Below, piece by piece: positions 30,391 to 63,456 of a DNA stretch of 64,000 nucleotides. The position numbers and the translations under genes were made by a program. Each line of letters starts with the position of its first letter. Position 1 is the first letter of the stretch. The stretch lies in sequence record OR699282.2, one strand, 5' to 3'. The notes beneath the pieces were generated by a model. It saw only the letters and a list, made by a program, of their open reading frames with translations. It searched no databases and had not been told where the DNA came from. Source of the stretch: Escherichia phage BAU.Micro_ELP-22.

Positions 30391-30419
30391 TTGGACAAGA
30401 ACAGATATTGTGATATAAT
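30391..30419 (+). promoter_or_regulatory. Sigma70-type early promoter
   Basis: TTGGAC, 17 nt spacer, GATATAAT. Confidence 0.55.
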
Positions 30420-35048: not shown

Positions 35049-35176
<128 letters not shown>

Positions 35177-35180
35177 AAAT

Positions 35181-35282
<102 letters not shown>

Positions 35283-35624: not shown

Positions 35625-36033
<409 letters not shown>

Positions 36034-36804: not shown

Positions 36805-37194
<390 letters not shown>

Positions 37195-37210
37195 TATTAA
37201 GTATTGATAT

Positions 37211-37456
<246 letters not shown>

Positions 37457-37461
37457 CTAAA

Positions 37462-37626
<165 letters not shown>

Positions 37627-48899: not shown

Positions 48900-49321
48900 G
48901 AGGCTATAATAAGATTTGTATTTTTGTATTTTTAGTTTGTGCATTCAATTCGTTTGGTTACTACTGTACAGAAAATAATATTTCATATGGTTTAAATCCT
49001 TTGTGGTTTACAATTTCCAATGTAGCACAAATTGGTATTGCTCTTATGTCTGCACTTATGTTCTGTCCAATTGTCACTATGGATACTGATCATGAAAGGC
49101 TTGGATTTCTCCGTGATACTGGAGACGAACCTTACAGTAGATTGATTGTGTTGTATCCATTTATTGTTATTTTAGGTACTAACATCCAACTTGGGTCATT
49201 ATCTAATAGTGTTACATCAGCAGCTATTGCTATATTTGCATTCACATTTTTTATGGTACACAAATCAGTACTTAATTGGTATATCACAAAAATGGCAGAA
49301 GAAGGTACTAAAAATACTTGA
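48896..49321 (+). CDS. Polytopic membrane protein
   Basis: 141 aa; several hydrophobic helices; ATGA overlap. Confidence 0.5.
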   Translation: MRGYNKICIFVFLVCAFNSFGYYCTENNISYGLNPLWFTISNVAQIGIALMSALMFCPIVTMDTDHERLGFLRDTGDEPYSRLIVLYPFIVILGTNIQLGSLSNSVTSAAIAIFAFTFFMVHKSVLNWYITKMAEEGTKNT

Positions 49322-49346
49322 CATAATTTAGTATGTTATATATAAT
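49318..49346 (+). promoter_or_regulatory. Sigma70-type early promoter
   Basis: TTGACA, 17 nt spacer, TATAAT. Confidence 0.6.
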
Positions 49347-49380: not shown

Positions 49381-49632
49381 ATGAACATCGATAAGGTCAA
49401 AGAACTTAGTGCTGCACTAATTAAGAATGAAGAAGTTTGTGAAGAACTTCGCAGTACTATCAAAGTTGAGTACGCACGACTCCAAGGTATGCTTCAAGAA
49501 TCAGAATGGGTAGTAACTAAATCTATCGAAGCAATCTATAAGGATATCGAATCCCTTTTCAACAAGAAAAGTAAGATTGAATCTGATTCATATAACAAAC
49601 GTAAAGAGTTATCTACTGCACTTGGTATCTAA
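49381..49632 (+). CDS. Hypothetical protein
   Basis: 83 aa; AAGGAA RBS. Confidence 0.5.
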   Translation: MNIDKVKELSAALIKNEEVCEELRSTIKVEYARLQGMLQESEWVVTKSIEAIYKDIESLFNKKSKIESDSYNKRKELSTALGI

Positions 49633-49706
49633 AAGTATTTGAGATAACAAATAATATGGAGTACAATGTGCTCCTAATTTAATTATCAGCTAAAAAGGAA
49701 AACATT

Positions 49707-49967
49707 ATGAAATCTATTCTCGTTGCAGTTAACCTGGTTGCTTCCCCATCTTTCAACTTCAAACAAGTTGTTGCTGATAATCTGAAGAAGATCTGTCCAA
49801 ACGCTGAATTAACTTTCTGTGTGTTTGATTCAGAAAAAGTAACTAAAGTTGATCTAAACTATCTTTTGAACGAAGTAAAAAGCGTTTCTGGTGAAAGTAA
49901 CTTAAAAGTTCTTCATGATATTGCAGAAGATTATGATGACACTCTAGTAATTTCGGAGAAATTCTAA
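49707..49967 (+). CDS. Hypothetical protein
   Basis: 86 aa; AAGGAAA RBS. Confidence 0.5.
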   Translation: MKSILVAVNLVASPSFNFKQVVADNLKKICPNAELTFCVFDSEKVTKVDLNYLLNEVKSVSGESNLKVLHDIAEDYDDTLVISEKF

Positions 49968-49972
49968 ATCAA

Positions 49973-50392
49973 ATGATTACATTCATTCAGTACTTAATCA
50001 TTAAATTTTTTGGCTATCATACGATTGAAGGCAAAGCTACACTCGCACATAAAATCTTTGTAGCATTATGTACGGGTGATTATGACGTATTGAATAAGTA
50101 CTGTAAATCTAAAGCATGTATTGATATAATGGCACTTCGTATCTATGAGTGCCGTTCCAATAGATACAATTTTTACCAATACAGATTTGATGAAAAAGAA
50201 TTTGATAGCATCAAAATGCTTAAGAATTTATGTAACAATAAAAAGAATATGCATATATCAGAATTTGTTGCTTTGTATTTTTATTTAAAAAGTTCATTGT
50301 ATATGAACACAATGCAAAGATTCGATACTAGAATTAATGTATTCACCGATAAAGAATTTTATATATACGATAAATTCTTAGATAAGGTTTAA
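49973..50392 (+). CDS. Hypothetical protein
   Basis: 139 aa ORF. Confidence 0.5.
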   Translation: MITFIQYLIIKFFGYHTIEGKATLAHKIFVALCTGDYDVLNKYCKSKACIDIMALRIYECRSNRYNFYQYRFDEKEFDSIKMLKNLCNNKKNMHISEFVALYFYLKSSLYMNTMQRFDTRINVFTDKEFYIYDKFLDKV

Positions 50393-50393
50393 T

Positions 50394-50891
50394 ATGACAA
50401 CTGTTTATATTGATAAACGATTAAATTTATTGATTACCGATTCTAGAGTTACGTCAACTATACCACGAAACTTATTTGGTTTTTTCCCACTAAGACCAAA
50501 ATATCAATATGGAGTTGTTAATCAAAAAACTTTATATGTACATGACCGTTTATTCAGTGCTAGTGGGGTAGTAAGTGAAATTGATAAAGTACTGGATTGG
50601 TTAATTAATAAAGTACCAGTTATACCTGACAGAAAGTTAAGTTGCCATTGTGTGCTTCTTTCTAAAGATTATGTTATTCATATGATTTTAACTAAAGGAA
50701 AGTTTATTAAAAAACTTGAATATCTACATGAAGACTACACTTTCTTTATGGGAAGTGGTGGAGAATACATGCTAGATGCTGCTATTCATGAAGAACATAC
50801 AACTTTATATGATAAAGTGTTTAGTACTTTCATGGATGTGCACAACCATGATTGTTTCACAGATGATAATATTAATGTATATCGATTTTGA
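50394..50891 (+). CDS. HslV-like N-terminal-nucleophile peptidase (proteasome beta-type)
   Basis: 165 aa; starts MTT (Thr nucleophile position as in HslV MTTIVSV); FMGSGGEYMLDAA parallels HslV IGSGGPYAQAA. Confidence 0.55.
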   Translation: MTTVYIDKRLNLLITDSRVTSTIPRNLFGFFPLRPKYQYGVVNQKTLYVHDRLFSASGVVSEIDKVLDWLINKVPVIPDRKLSCHCVLLSKDYVIHMILTKGKFIKKLEYLHEDYTFFMGSGGEYMLDAAIHEEHTTLYDKVFSTFMDVHNHDCFTDDNINVYRF

Positions 50892-50912
50892 TTTCGTCAT
50901 TAGGAGATGTAA

Positions 50913-51878
50913 GTGAAAAAGCTTGATTTAAATACAATTGCCGAAGAAGTTCTGGATGAATGTTTTGCTAATGAAGAAGTCAACACACTAGAAGCCTTAG
51001 ATTTCGTTGAAGATAAAGATGAAAATGAAGGTAAAGTACAAAGCAGTTTCAAATATAATATTACACTTAAGCGACCACCAAATGTTTCCAATGAAGATCT
51101 AATTCGTGATATTCAAGCTGGTATCAATGTAAAGAAAAACACTGAACTGTTAGTTCGTTACAATTATGGACTGATTATTGATGTAGCAAGTAAATGTACT
51201 TGTTATATCCCATTTGAAGATAAGATTTCATATGGTGTTGAGGGGTTCATGAGAGCACTAAAAACCTTTGATCTTAATAAGAATGTTAAGTTCATTACCT
51301 ATGCTTCTTCTAGTATTTACATGACAGTCTATAACGAAAGTTCTGACGCTAACTATATGGTACACTTCCCACGTTATATGAGTGTTCATAAGATCAAAGT
51401 AAAAAGATTCTGTCAGGAATATATGCGTAAACATGGTGTTCGCCCAACTCCTGAAATAATCTCAGAGGGTACTGGGATTGAGATTCAGCATGTTAATAAT
51501 TGTTTGTTATTTCAAAGCGAATACACTTCGCTGGATGCACCATTAGACGGTGTTACAGATGGTACATTAGGTGACATTATTCATTCACCTGCTTCTGATT
51601 TTAACCTCAATGTTGATAGTATCCGTGCACCTTTACGTTATGCTATCAATGAACTGACTAACGAATTGAGTACTAAAGAACGTGAGATTATCCAGCGTGT
51701 TCATGGTCTAGGTGAATATGAACCTGAAACGCTTCGTGAGATTGCTGATAATGGTTTTGTTGATGATAATGGAAAATATGTTAAATCCCGTTCATCAATA
51801 CACCGAAAGTACAGTGAAGCTATGCAAAAGCTTAAGAAGTTAGTACTTGCAAAAGGGTACGAATACGAAGATTTCTAA
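50913..51878 (+). CDS. Sigma-70 family RNA polymerase sigma factor
   Basis: 321 aa, GTG start after AGGAG; region 2-like GVEGFMRALKTFDLNKNVKFITYASSSI and HFPRYM; region 4-like TLREIAD... Confidence 0.65.
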   Translation: MKKLDLNTIAEEVLDECFANEEVNTLEALDFVEDKDENEGKVQSSFKYNITLKRPPNVSNEDLIRDIQAGINVKKNTELLVRYNYGLIIDVASKCTCYIPFEDKISYGVEGFMRALKTFDLNKNVKFITYASSSIYMTVYNESSDANYMVHFPRYMSVHKIKVKRFCQEYMRKHGVRPTPEIISEGTGIEIQHVNNCLLFQSEYTSLDAPLDGVTDGTLGDIIHSPASDFNLNVDSIRAPLRYAINELTNELSTKEREIIQRVHGLGEYEPETLREIADNGFVDDNGKYVKSRSSIHRKYSEAMQKLKKLVLAKGYEYEDF

Positions 51879-51885
51879 AGAACAA

Positions 51886-51911
51886 GGGTTGGCTTATGCC
51901 AACCTTTTTTT
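51886..51911 (+). terminator. Rho-independent terminator
   Basis: ggttggc-ttat-gccaacc hairpin followed by T7. Confidence 0.75.
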
Positions 51912-51914
51912 ATG

Positions 51915-51941
51915 GGATGAAGTAAAAGTTTGTGATATAAT
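51915..51941 (+). promoter_or_regulatory. Probable early promoter (strong extended -10, weak -35)
   Basis: TGTGATATAAT. Confidence 0.4.
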
Positions 51942-51944
51942 TAT

Positions 51945-52430
51945 CTTGTACAATTCTGTTGGCATGATATTCATGTACCTGATCCACTCGAAAACGTAGA
52001 GGGCAGTTGAGCAGTCCGACAGTGCGAACAGCAAAAGAAACCCGTTAGATGTGGGCATAGTTTGAACCCCTCACGGCAATGCGGCTGTATAAAGAACCAC
52101 GTTAGGATAGCTGGTGGTTCCTTGATAGACATATAAGGATAACACCTTACGAATTATCTAAGGGAGAGTTATCGAATTTTGTACAGGAAAGTTGCGTCCA
52201 AAATTTGAGTACTCACATTAAGTATTTGATTGCATAGATACTTAATGAAGATACACTATGTTTAAAAGTGTAGACCGTCATATGAAACTGAAGTAGAGAG
52301 AAACAGGATGACCCGCTTTCGCACTCGTTATGAGTAATCTTCAATGCAATAGCTCTGATACCATCAGCGTCAAATTTCCCTCCTTGTGGGGGGAAGAAAA
52401 ATCCCTTCCTCAAATCCCGTCAATATTAAA
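51945..52430 (+). ncRNA. ORF-free, partly GC-enriched block; candidate structured RNA
   Basis: No + strand ORF of 60 aa or more; first ~150 nt markedly more GC-rich than genome; ends with 8-bp hairpin ttccctcc/ggggggaa. Confidence 0.3.
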
Positions 52431-54260: not shown

Positions 54261-54288
54261 TTGACATAAGATATCAGTACTGTATAAT
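54261..54288 (+). promoter_or_regulatory. Early promoter, conserved-spacer family
   Basis: TTGACA-taagatatcagtactg-TATAAT. Confidence 0.7.
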
Positions 54289-59807: not shown

Positions 59808-59999
59808 ATGTTGATTTATCAAAGTGATAATATTCGTGTTATGCAGCATCCCTACTTACAAATCTTTGATGTGCAGCAGTATATGGAAGGTGATGACCCA
59901 AGAACCTATGGTCGTAAGTATGATTACTTCACTGTAAAGCAGTGTAAAAATATTAACGAAGTACGACAATTAGTTCAAGAACTTCAAAACAAAGGTTGA
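59808..59999 (+). CDS. Hypothetical protein
   Basis: 63 aa from ATG with AAGGA RBS. Confidence 0.45.
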   Translation: MLIYQSDNIRVMQHPYLQIFDVQQYMEGDDPRTYGRKYDYFTVKQCKNINEVRQLVQELQNKG

Positions 60000-60025
60000 C
60001 TTCGGTCAGCCTTTTTTGTTATAAT
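59994..60025 (+). terminator. Composite terminator-promoter element, copy 1
   Basis: ggttgac-ttcg-gtcagcc hairpin plus T6; the hairpin contains TTGACT and is followed 18 nt later by TATAAT. Confidence 0.65.
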
Positions 60026-62738: not shown

Positions 62739-62766
62739 GGGACAACCATTCTTATTATGATATAAT
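62739..62766 (+). promoter_or_regulatory. Early-type promoter
   Basis: GGGACA -35-like, 16 nt spacer, GATATAAT. Confidence 0.5.
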
Positions 62767-62800: not shown

Positions 62801-62808
62801 TATAAATA
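62801..62808 (+). promoter_or_regulatory. T4-type late promoter box TATAAATA
   Basis: Exact TATAAATA 37 nt upstream of the 62845 start. Confidence 0.5.
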
Positions 62809-63234: not shown

Positions 63235-63260
63235 GGGTTGACTAAGGTCAGCCCTTTGTT
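63235..63260 (+). terminator. Composite terminator-promoter element, copy 2
   Basis: gggttgac-taag-gtcagccc hairpin plus T-rich tail; contains TTGACT. Confidence 0.6.
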
Positions 63261-63296
63261 GTATCATAACTTCTCAATATAACTGAGGTATCATAT

Positions 63297-63418: not shown

Positions 63419-63440
63419 GGTTGACTTCGGTCAGCCTTTT
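63419..63440 (+). terminator. Composite terminator-promoter element, copy 3
   Basis: ggttgac-ttcg-gtcagcc hairpin plus TTTT; near-identical to copy 1. Confidence 0.65.
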
Positions 63441-63448
63441 CTTTATAC

Positions 63449-63456
63449 TATAAATA
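63449..63456 (+). promoter_or_regulatory. T4-type late promoter box TATAAATA
   Basis: Exact TATAAATA 19 nt upstream of the 63475 start. Confidence 0.5.

What the first reader, a model, noticed from the sequence alone, without database searches (positions are those of the whole stretch)
50913..51878. Phage-encoded sigma-70 family protein in a genome that also uses T4-type late promoters
The 321-aa protein has recognisable region 2 (KFITYASSSI, HFPRYM) and a region-4-like helix-turn-helix near the C-terminus, which is longer and more complete than T4 gp55 as I recall it. The window also contains exact TATAAATA late boxes (3297, 62801, 63449). Either this is a gp55 orthologue with an unusual extension, or an additional sigma factor for a separate promoter class.
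Basis: partly seen in the sequence, partly recalled or inferred. Interest (0 to 1): 0.6.

Follow-up and report, generated by a model that had tools for sequence, protein, structure and literature searches.

The report
Jumbo phage's own sigma-70-type factor
This gene in a 121Q/PBECO4-type giant E. coli phage encodes a full-length sigma-70-family factor that is already annotated in public records, is separate from the phage's T4 gp55-like late sigma, and probably switches host RNA polymerase to the phage's middle (DNA-replication) promoters.

Summary
The ORF (50913-51878, +, 321 aa, GTG start with an AGGAG ribosome-binding site) is real. It encodes a sigma-70-family protein with regions 1.2/2, 3 and 4, supported by Pfam, NCBIfam, PHROG 351, an AlphaFold model and Foldseek hits to sigmaS/sigmaA. 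The window is an Asteriusvirus (E. coli jumbo phage of the 121Q/PBECO4/JP4 type). The gene is 121Q gp167, already annotated as an RNA polymerase sigma factor and conserved across Rak2-like jumbo phages. It is not a gp55 orthologue: a separate gp55-like gene lies about 110 kb away in a 98%-identical genome. The three + strand TATAAATA boxes are genuine late-type signals; the motif is about 5-fold depleted genome-wide, mostly intergenic, and in the window precedes virion genes. The sigma gene ends a five-gene operon with a perfect host-type promoter and a terminator, so it is predicted to be early. A third promoter class, TG(G/A)GACA-N16-TGnTATAAT, heads the replication genes and the gp55-like gene. 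I infer a cascade of host sigma70, then phage sigma, then gp55. The assignment of that class to this sigma is inference and has not been tested experimentally. Verdict: already known kind and gene; modest interest.

The parts
49318..49346 (+). Perfect-consensus host sigma70-type promoter (TTGACA-17-TATAAT, 12/12) heading the operon that ends with the sigma gene
   Evidence: also listed
49639..49667 (+). Second, weaker sigma70-type promoter (TTGAGA-17-TACAAT, 10/12) inside the operon
49381..50891 (+). Four small co-oriented genes upstream of sigma (83, 86, 139 and 165 aa), all of unknown function (PHROGs 14825, 26969, 37211, 24804; the last has a weak HslV-peptidase-like hit)
50902..50906 (+). 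Shine-Dalgarno AGGAG, 6 nt upstream of the GTG start
50913..51878 (+). Sigma-70-family gene (321 aa), equal to 121Q gp167 and annotated 'RNA polymerase sigma factor'
50913..51065 (+). Acidic N-terminal segment (aa 1-51), predicted disordered apart from a short helix. The MKKLDLNxIxxEVLDECF motif is conserved across all Rak2-like clades
51090..51341 (+). Regions 1.2/2 (aa ~60-143). The -11A pocket residues are kept (F119, K123, Y130), but sigma70 W433/W434 are S133/S134, Q437 is M, T440 is Y and R441 is N
51372..51590 (+). Region 3 including the 3.2 linker (aa ~154-226). Sigma70 H455 and E458, which read the extended -10, are Y155 and V158
51612..51851 (+). Region 4 (aa ~234-313), with a clade-specific 7-8 residue insertion in the HTH turn (FVDDNGKY, nt 51756-51779). 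The recognition helix is SRSSIHRK (nt 51786-51809), against TRERIRQI in sigma70
51884..51907 (+). Intrinsic terminator (10-bp stem plus T-run) starting 6 nt after the sigma stop codon
3297..3304 (+). TATAAATA late-type box, 19 nt upstream of an 806-aa virion structural protein gene
62801..62808 (+). TATAAATA late-type box, 44 nt upstream of a 127-aa virion structural protein gene
63449..63456 (+). TATAAATA late-type box, about 25 nt upstream of a 503-aa virion structural protein gene that runs off the window
62739..62766 (+). Candidate phage-sigma ('middle') promoter: GGGACA-N16-(TGA)TATAAT
35049..35076 (+). Candidate phage-sigma ('middle') promoter, GGGACA-N16-(TGA)TATAAT, directly upstream of a tRNA cluster (tRNAs from 35087)
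30392..30419 (+). Variant of the same class: TGGACA-N16-(TGA)TATAAT

Best explanation
The gene encodes a phage sigma-70-family initiation factor with regions 1.2/2, 3 and 4. It is made early, from a consensus host-sigma70 promoter. It then binds host core RNA polymerase and redirects it to a phage-specific promoter class. The most likely target is the middle class TG(G/A)GACA-N16-(R)TG(A/C)TATAAT, which heads the replication and recombination genes and the separate gp55-like late sigma gene. This gives a three-step cascade: host sigma70 (TTGAC[AT]-N17-TATAAT early promoters), then this sigma (middle promoters), then gp55-like sigma (TATAAATA late promoters). Shown: the domain architecture, the non-identity with gp55, the early-type operon, and the existence, distribution and gene content of the three promoter classes. 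Inferred: that the protein binds E. coli core polymerase, and that it, and not sigma70 plus a helper, reads the TG(G/A)GACA class.
For: Architecture: HMM hits to regions 2, 3 and 4 and PHROG 351. phmmer against the PDB aligns aa 74-279 with E. coli sigma70 residues 373-578. The AF2 model has three confident helical domains. The Foldseek top 50 are all sigmaS or sigmaA, E down to 2e-10.

Early expression: the operon has a 12/12 TTGACA-17-TATAAT promoter and a terminator right after the stop codon. The window holds 31 such promoters, all on the + strand.

Separate late sigma.

Promoter class 2 in the 98%-identical genome: 19 sites against 5.5 expected, all on the coding strand. Positions outside the search pattern are also conserved: T before the hexamer in 13/16, A after it in 13/16, and TG at -15/-14 in 16/16, against 24/92 for the TTGAC class. 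Downstream genes are DNA polymerase, SSB with UvsX, primase with helicase, exonuclease, topoisomerase II, and SbcD with the gp55-like gene.

Same geometry in CBB: 'Promoter 1' is TG(A/G)AAC(G/A)-N16-TGnTATAAT and includes the promoter of its gp55-like gene (PMC5259590 text and Table S6). GAP32 and a RaK2-like phage have related elements.

Specificity residues: the -35-reading residues differ from sigma70 (E585S, R586S, R588H, Q589R, plus an insertion in the HTH turn), which fits a non-TTGACA -35 element. The recognition helix and the TGGGACA element are both unchanged in a sub-clade whose sigma is only 59% identical.

Phyletic pattern: PA5oct-like Pseudomonas phages have a gp55-like gene but gave no hit to this sigma. 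One of them, Ettore, has an ordinary TTGACT-N17-TAAAAT upstream of its gp55-like gene.

Rate of change: the sigma diverges much faster across clades (35-44% identity) than gp55 does (69-74%), and the -35-like element also differs between clades.
Against: No experiment on this protein or any orthologue was found. Papers up to 2026 only say it 'likely' associates with host RNAP.

Class 2 promoters carry a perfect extended -10 (TGnTATAAT) and 4 of 6 matches to TTGACA, so host sigma70 could plausibly use them unaided.

The phage sigma lacks the sigma70 residues that read TG (H455, E458) and -12T (Q437, T440), and also W433/W434. It is therefore not obvious that it reads the same -10 that class 2 carries.

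A one-residue code does not hold across three clades. The R588-equivalent is His with -33G in Asteriusvirus and Ser with -33A in CBB, but His with -33A in RaK2-like phages.

The genome-wide promoter analysis used a 98%-identical relative, because the window covers only 64 kb.
Confidence: 0.55

Rival explanations
1. The protein is a general sigma70 substitute. It reads all TATAAT-type phage promoters, including the TTGAC class, and keeps phage transcription going after host sigma70 is inactivated or outcompeted. It has no dedicated promoter class.
For: All three sigma70-like promoter groups share the same TATAAT -10. The -11A pocket residues F419, R423(K) and Y430 are conserved. RpoD-type models are the best HMM matches.
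Against: The region 4.2 recognition residues and the region 2.4/3.0 readers differ from sigma70. No AsiA-like anti-sigma was detected, although that test was weak. The distinct, strand-consistent TG(G/A)GACA class with an obligatory TG would remain unexplained.
Confidence: 0.18
2. The TG(G/A)GACA class is read by host sigma70 with a phage activator or appropriator, as T4 does with MotA/AsiA. The phage sigma then serves another promoter set that I did not recognise, for example the array of about 25 GTACTTGCA-N17-TATAAT-GTTTTACATC modules.
For: Class 2 is a good extended -10 promoter for sigma70. The CTTGCA array is also strongly enriched (25 sites against 3.9 expected) and has conserved features beyond the sigma70 consensus.
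Against: phmmer found no MotA or AsiA homologue (best E>0.5); the test was low-sensitivity. The CTTGCA array looks like a typical immediate-early host-takeover region, with an UP-like A-tract and near-consensus hexamers. A clade that lacks this sigma uses a plain TTGACT promoter for gp55.
Confidence: 0.17
3. The protein is a competitor or decoy that sequesters host core RNAP or host factors to shut off host transcription, without initiating transcription itself.
For: The melting residues W433/W434 are lost. A conserved acidic N-terminal motif of unknown role is present.
Against: Regions 2, 3, 3.2 and 4 are all retained and conserved across a clade that spans 35-100% identity. Many functional group 3 and group 4 sigmas also lack these Trp residues (established knowledge).
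Confidence: 0.06
4. The protein is a T4 gp55 orthologue with a C-terminal extension.
For: Only a 22-residue local similarity in region 2.2 (BLASTP E=0.12).
Against: It matches no gp55-family profile. It has regions 3 and 4. A true gp55 orthologue exists elsewhere in the genome.
Confidence: 0.01

Closest known systems
Orthologous sigma factors of Rak2-like jumbo phages (121Q gp167, PBECO4, phAPEC6, Sharanji RpoD, RaK2 ORF244, GAP32, CBB_513)
   Same: It is the same gene: 99.4-99.7% identical protein in 121Q/PBECO4-type phages, 44% in RaK2 and 35% in GAP32/CBB. The public records carry the same annotation. The CBB paper places the gene among RpoD-type early promoters.
   Different: Nothing substantive. 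No orthologue has been studied experimentally, and the Asteriusvirus-specific -35-like element TG(G/A)GACA had not been described in the papers I could read.
Bacterial group 1/2 sigma factors (E. coli sigma70 and sigmaS)
   Same: Same domain order (1.2, 2, 3, 3.2, 4). Best sequence and fold matches. The core-binding region 2.2 and the -11A pocket residues are conserved.
   Different: About 20-25% identity, and far below every curated subfamily cutoff (for example RpoD_Cterm 88 bits against 354). There is no region 1.1 domain or non-conserved region. W433/W434, Q437, T440, R441, H455, E458, E585, R586, R588 and Q589 are all substituted, and the region 4.2 HTH turn carries an insertion.
T4 gp55 (late sigma) with gp33 and gp45
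   Same: Both are phage-encoded sigma-family proteins that redirect host core RNAP. The genome also uses TATAAATA-type late boxes.
   Different: gp55 is a minimal, region-2-only sigma. This protein is full length and belongs to a different family. The phage carries its own gp55 orthologue elsewhere.
T4 MotA/AsiA sigma appropriation at middle promoters
   Same: The proposed role is the same: switching on replication-gene (middle) promoters that keep a sigma70-type -10 but carry a different upstream element.
   Different: T4 remodels host sigma70 and does not replace it. No MotA or AsiA homologue was detected here (weak test). The upstream element here sits at the canonical -35 position with a 16-bp spacer, not at -30.
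Bacillus phage SPO1 gp28 followed by gp33/34 sigma cascade
   Same: A cascade in which an early phage-encoded sigma replaces the host sigma for middle genes, one of which encodes the late sigma (from my own knowledge, and the abstract of PMC13401047 listed).
   Different: No homology test was run. The host and phage lineage differ, and here the late step is T4 gp55-like.

Membership tests
Sigma-70 family (superfamily level) | Region 2 domain (core binding, -10 recognition) | tested here: met
   Pfam Sigma70_r2 E=7e-5 (23.0 bits, just under the 24.0 cutoff). TIGR02937 scores 44.7 against a 42.9 cutoff. phmmer aligns the region to sigma70 residues 373-456. The AF2 helices are confident.
Sigma-70 family (superfamily level) | Region 3 domain | tested here: met
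   Pfam Sigma70_r3 scores 37.8 bits against a 25.3 cutoff, E=2e-9.
Sigma-70 family (superfamily level) | Region 4 helix-turn-helix | tested here: met
   Pfam Sigma70_r4 E=3e-5 (23.8 against 24.1), matching only the first half because of the insertion in the HTH turn. In the AF2 model, residues ~251-310 have pLDDT 83-89. Foldseek aligns about 250-270 columns to full-length sigmas.
Sigma-70 family (superfamily level) | Binds core RNAP and confers promoter-specific initiation | not testable with these tools
   Requires biochemistry. No experimental report was found.
Primary/RpoS-type sigma (groups 1-2) | Reaches the curated RpoD/RpoS model cutoffs | tested here: not met
   RpoD_Cterm scores 88 bits against 354, and rpoS_proteo 70.5 against 378.7.
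Primary/RpoS-type sigma (groups 1-2) | Conserved region 2.3/2.4 residues (W433, W434, Q437, T440) and region 4.2 residues (E585, R588) | tested here: not met
   They are S133, S134, M137, Y140 and S, H respectively. The substitutions are conserved across the Asteriusvirus-type family, while distant sigmas P0013 and P0014 keep W/WW-IRQ.
T4 gp55 late sigma family | Profile or sequence similarity to gp55 | tested here: not met
   No hit to PHROG 234 or 12791. BLASTP against T4 gp55 gives E=0.12.
T4 gp55 late sigma family | Is the genome's gp55 counterpart | tested here: not met
   A different 279-aa protein fills that role in the relative genome (PHROG 12791 E=2.7e-154; PHROG 234 E=8e-18). It is annotated in 121Q (gene 591), PBECO4 and GAP32.
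PHROG 351 (phage RNA polymerase sigma factors) | Profile match over the full length | tested here: met
   E=2.6e-60, covering residues 1-317.
Phage 'middle' sigma factors (functional class, e.g. SPO1 gp28) | Early expression, with a regulon of replication genes plus the late regulator | tested here: inconclusive
   An early-type promoter and terminator flank the operon. The candidate regulon fits. The link between this sigma and that promoter class is inferred only.

The most novel reading that the evidence does not exclude
Rak2-like jumbo phages run middle transcription by outright sigma replacement, where T4 uses MotA/AsiA appropriation. The sigma lacks the W433/W434 melting wedge and the known TG and -12 readers, and has a hairpin inserted in the region 4.2 HTH turn. 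This sigma and its -35-like element (G[GA]GACA in Asteriusvirus, G[AG]AACG in Mimasvirus, TGAAC[AG] in Alcyoneusvirus) co-evolve as lineage-specific pairs, while the -10 box and the gp55/TATAAATA late system stay fixed.
Probability: 0.4. Interest if true: 0.5.

Novelty: already known. Interest (0 to 1): 0.28.

Why it matters
The gene marks how RNAP-less jumbo phages program a 350-kb genome using only the host polymerase. If the cascade holds, this would be a natural set of orthogonal sigma/-35 pairs that work with E. coli core RNAP. That is useful for synthetic biology, and for understanding how a sigma without the canonical Trp wedge opens DNA. As a discovery it is minor. The protein is annotated in dozens of public genomes, and the coexistence of an RpoD-like sigma and a gp55-like sigma in this clade is already published.

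Tried and rejected
1. Finding gp55 by sequence. tblastn and phmmer with T4 gp55 against the relative genome gave nothing significant (best E=0.1). The orthologue was found through the NP[FH][AS]Y signature and confirmed with PHROGs.
2. The CBB/GAP32 motif. TGAAAC-N-TATAAT is not enriched in this genus (18 against 16.2 expected). The local equivalent is TG(G/A)GACA.
3. A one-residue recognition code. His goes with -33G and Ser with -33A for Asteriusvirus versus CBB, but this fails for RaK2-like phages. I report it as inconclusive.
4. Dispensability. A paper's statement that phage Ecwhy_1 lacks this sigma would have implied the gene is dispensable. It is wrong at the DNA level: the gene is 99.2% identical and full length.
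5. MotA and AsiA. phmmer found no homologues (E>0.5). This test is insensitive, given that gp55 itself scored only 0.1.
6. Virion packaging. The main text of the phAPEC6 structural paper mentions the sigma only as a genome-encoded function. I did not read its virion-protein table, so this is not a test.
7. The ORF-poor 520 nt after the terminator. There is no Rfam hit and no significant fold (z -1.4 and -1.7).
8. Homologue collection. The search for homologous proteins returned only 14 homologues because of its word filter, so the AF2 alignment was shallow (mean pLDDT 67).

Full report
**Observation.** The ORF at 50913-51878 (+) exists exactly as described: 321 aa with a GTG start. AGGAG lies 6 nt upstream of the start, and the upstream gene's stop codon is at 50889-50891.

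Pfam finds Sigma70_r3 above its cutoff (37.8 against 25.3 bits). Sigma70_r2 and Sigma70_r4 fall just below theirs (E=7e-5 and 3e-5). NCBIfam gives RpoD_Cterm E=6e-25 and rpoS E=1.6e-19, and the superfamily model TIGR02937 scores above its cutoff. PHROGs gives family 351, 'RNA polymerase sigma factor', at E=2.6e-60 over residues 1-317.

**Identity of the window.** Megablast places the window in Asteriusvirus, the E. coli jumbo phages of the 121Q/PBECO4/JP4 type. It is 99.5% identical to JP4 over 5 kb. The gene is 121Q gp167, annotated 'RNA polymerase sigma factor'.

tblastn finds full-length homologues throughout the Rak2-like clade. Identities are 99.4-99.7% in 121Q/PBECO4-type phages, 59% in a second Asteriusvirus sub-clade, 44% in RaK2, 35-37% in GAP32, CBB and Salmonella phage 7t3, and 31% in Xanthomonas XbC2.

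The literature already records this gene. The CBB paper describes an RpoD-like sigma (CBB_513) with regions 2-4 in a putative early region, together with a separate gp55-like protein and three predicted promoter classes (PMC5259590). A comparative study states that 'group 2' jumbo phages carry both a minimal sigma and an RpoD-like sigma (PMC7824862). Papers on Sharanji, phAPEC6 and fEgEco12, and a 2026 review, mention it only as a predicted factor. I found no experiment on it.

**Not gp55.** BLASTP against T4 gp55 gives E=0.12. The window maps to positions 283120-344684 of the 98%-identical, unannotated genome EC22.5-2. Elsewhere in that genome, at 217492-218331, is a 279-aa protein with the gp55 N-terminal and NPFSY signatures. 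It matches PHROG 12791, 'sigma factor for late transcription', at E=2.7e-154, and the T4 gp55 family PHROG 234 at E=8e-18. The same protein is annotated in 121Q (gene 591), PBECO4 and GAP32. The phage therefore has two sigma-family genes, and the one in the finding is the full-length one.

**Protein anatomy.** phmmer against the PDB aligns aa 74-279 with E. coli sigma70 residues 373-578. Through region 2, the sigma70 number equals the query number plus 300.
- The -11A pocket is largely kept: F419 is F, R423 is K, and Y430 is Y.
- The Trp pair W433/W434 is replaced by S133/S134. The -12 readers change (Q437 to M, T440 to Y, R441 to N), as do the extended -10 readers (H455 to Y, E458 to V).
- In region 4.2 the recognition helix reads SRSSIHRK, against TRERIRQI in sigma70. 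R584 is kept, while E585 becomes S, R586 S, R588 H and Q589 R.
- Seven to eight extra residues (FVDDNGKY) sit in the HTH turn.

These features are conserved among the 12 family members at 47-85% identity, whereas two distant sigmas keep W/WW-IRQ and lack the insertion. The N-terminal MKKLDLNxIxxEVLDECF motif is conserved even in the 35%-identical clades.

The AlphaFold model has mean pLDDT 67 because the alignment was shallow. It shows three confident helical domains (about 60-143, 154-199 and 234-313), a disordered acidic N-terminus, and a small beta-bridge at the insertion. The 50 best Foldseek PDB matches are all sigmaS or sigmaA chains aligned over about 250-270 columns, with E down to 2e-10. 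TM-scores are low because a free model does not adopt the extended conformation seen in holoenzyme.

**Transcription context.** The sigma gene is the last of five co-oriented genes. The operon starts with a 12/12 TTGACA-17-TATAAT promoter at 49318-49346 and has a second 10/12 promoter at 49639-49667. It ends in a 10-bp-stem terminator at 51884-51907. The four upstream genes have no known function. The window as a whole is an early-type region: it holds 31 TTGAC[AT]-N16-18-TATAAT sites, all on the + strand.

**Late boxes.** TATAAATA occurs four times in the window, against 12.3 expected. In the whole relative genome it occurs 14 times against about 67 expected. Ten of the 14 copies are intergenic, although only 7% of the genome is intergenic, and most of those lie 19-55 nt upstream of a start codon on the gene's strand. 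In the window, the three + strand copies precede genes that match virion-structural PHROGs 13911, 16530 and 20398. This is the signature of a functional signal that is avoided elsewhere, and it fits T4-type late promoters read by the gp55-like sigma.

**A third promoter class.** Dyad and -10-anchored analysis of intergenic regions of the relative genome separated three groups.
- TTGAC[AT]-N16-18-TATAAT: 92 sites against 16.5 expected, 88 of them on the + strand.
- An array of about 25 near-identical AAAAAGTACTTGCA-N17-TATAAT-GTTTTACATC-hairpin modules at 31-50 kb.
- G[GA]GACA-N16-18-TATAAT: 19 sites against 5.5 expected, all on the coding strand.

In the 16 sites of the third group that have a 16-bp spacer, positions outside the search pattern are also conserved. 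There is a T before the hexamer in 13/16, an A after it in 13/16, and R-T-G-M just before TATAAT. TG is present in 16/16, against 24/92 in the TTGAC class.

The genes downstream of this class are a small gene followed by the family B DNA polymerase, SSB with UvsX, primase with DnaB-like helicase, an exonuclease, topoisomerase II, a NUDIX hydrolase, and the gp55-like sigma with SbcD. The TTGAC class concentrates in the small-gene regions at 25-75 kb and 300-350 kb. The new class is spread over 75-350 kb, and intergenic ATAAATA boxes concentrate at 175-250 kb. Two strict members lie in the window, at 35049-35076 (in front of a tRNA cluster) and at 62739-62766.

**Comparison across clades.** CBB's published 'Promoter 1' is TG(A/G)AAC(G/A)-N16-TGnTATAAT and includes Porf_244, the promoter of its gp55-like gene. 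The geometry is identical to the class found here.

Upstream of the gp55-like gene, the sequences are as follows:
- Asteriusvirus (EC22.5-2 and WPEC5): TGGGACA.
- GAP32: TGGAACG.
- A RaK2-like phage: a TGAAT/TGAAC-type element.
- The PA5oct-like phage Ettore: an ordinary TTGACT-N17-TAAAAT.

A 109-kb RaK2-like record gives (c/t)TGAAC(A/G) in front of its SSB and other orthologues. Pseudomonas phages appear among the gp55 hits (11 records) but not among the 90 records that match this sigma. RNA-seq-guided promoters of PA5oct were reported only as TTGAC/TATAATA (PMC7318152). So clades with this sigma have a non-TTGACA element at -35 of their middle genes, and the one clade without it does not.

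The sigma diverges far faster across clades (35-44% identity) than gp55 does (69-74%). Within Asteriusvirus, a sub-clade whose sigma is only 59% identical keeps both the recognition-helix residues and TGGGACA. A simple one-residue code fails for RaK2, so I treat the covariation as suggestive only.

**Mechanism.** The best-supported model is a sigma cascade.
1. Host sigma70 transcribes the early regions, including this gene.
2. The new sigma takes over core RNAP and activates the TG(G/A)GACA middle promoters, which drive replication genes and the gp55-like gene.
3. The gp55-like sigma then reads the TATAAATA late promoters.

Step 1 and the promoter classes are shown by sequence analysis. The binding of the protein to core RNAP and its assignment to the middle class are inferred. 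The main rivals are a general sigma70 substitute and a model in which host sigma70 plus an unidentified helper reads the middle class. The second cannot be excluded, because class 2 promoters would be good extended -10 promoters for sigma70, and because the phage sigma lacks the sigma70 residues known to read TG.

**Novelty and score.** The gene, its family assignment and its coexistence with a gp55-like sigma and ATAAATA late motifs are all already in public annotation and in the literature for this clade. My additions are incremental. They are the Asteriusvirus form of the middle-promoter element, the operon structure, the specificity-residue analysis, and the correction of one published claim of absence: Ecwhy_1 carries the gene at 99.2% identity. 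Interest is therefore low to moderate.

Noticed in passing
whole window (152 AGTACT, 29 CAGTACTG), e.g. 35639-35646, 54275-54282; genome-wide in L003-L010: The palindrome AGTACT is about 9-fold over-represented in the 98%-identical genome (919 copies against about 100 expected). CAGTACTG is about 50-fold over-represented (204 against 3.9). Copies occur in all three reading frames and on both gene orientations, with a median spacing of about 1 kb, and 15% are intergenic. The motif is also abundant in a RaK2-like phage (54 CAGTACTG in 109 kb). This looks like a DNA-level signal of unknown function. I found no paper on it. It often abuts the -10 box of early promoters (CAGTACTGTATAAT).
   Followed up: partly
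genome-wide in L003-L010 (relative of the window): Several 6-bp palindromes are completely absent from the 352-kb genome despite sizeable expectations: CCATGG (0 against 48), AGGCCT (0 against 24), CGTACG (0 against 18) and AGCGCT (0 against 15). This suggests strong restriction-site avoidance.
   Followed up: no
window 51910-52430: A stretch of about 520 nt after the sigma terminator has no credible ORF and is unannotated in 121Q. It is somewhat GC-richer than its surroundings and is preceded by an extended -10 box (TGTGATATAAT, at about 51930-51940). There is no Rfam match, and predicted folding is not significantly better than shuffles (z -1.4 and -1.7).
   Followed up: partly
L003:31000-50000 (EC22.5-2, outside the window): An array of about 25 near-identical modules sits in front of consecutive small genes. 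Each has an A-tract, GTACTTGCA, N17, TATAAT, the leader GTTTTACATC, a GGGGAA..TTCCCC hairpin and a Shine-Dalgarno. It is probably an immediate-early host-takeover region with a conserved 5' leader structure.
   Followed up: partly
window 59996-60025, 63238-63267, 63421-63449: Terminator-like hairpins (GGTTGACTtcGGTCAGCC plus a T-run) double as the -35 and spacer of TTGACT-N18-TAT(A/C)(A/C)T promoters. These are compact terminator-promoter junctions between genes.
   Followed up: no
L007:41335-42063 (EC22.5-2, outside the window): A 243-aa protein of unknown function (PHROG 12062) sits behind a middle-class promoter next to the DNA polymerase gene. Its size and position make it a candidate sliding clamp (gp45 analogue), which the CBB paper reported as undetected. 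Not tested.
   Followed up: no
window 35049-35260 and 37185-37620: The phage tRNA clusters are preceded by GGGACA or TGGACA-N16-TGATATAAT promoters and not by TTGACA-type ones. This suggests the tRNAs belong to the middle class.
   Followed up: partly
literature (PMC13070987) versus MH791411.1 positions 1665-2630: The fEgEco12 paper lists the sigma factor as completely absent from phage Ecwhy_1. The Ecwhy_1 genome contains a full-length copy at 99.2% identity, annotated 'similar to RNA polymerase sigma factor'. The reported absence is an annotation artefact.
   Followed up: yes
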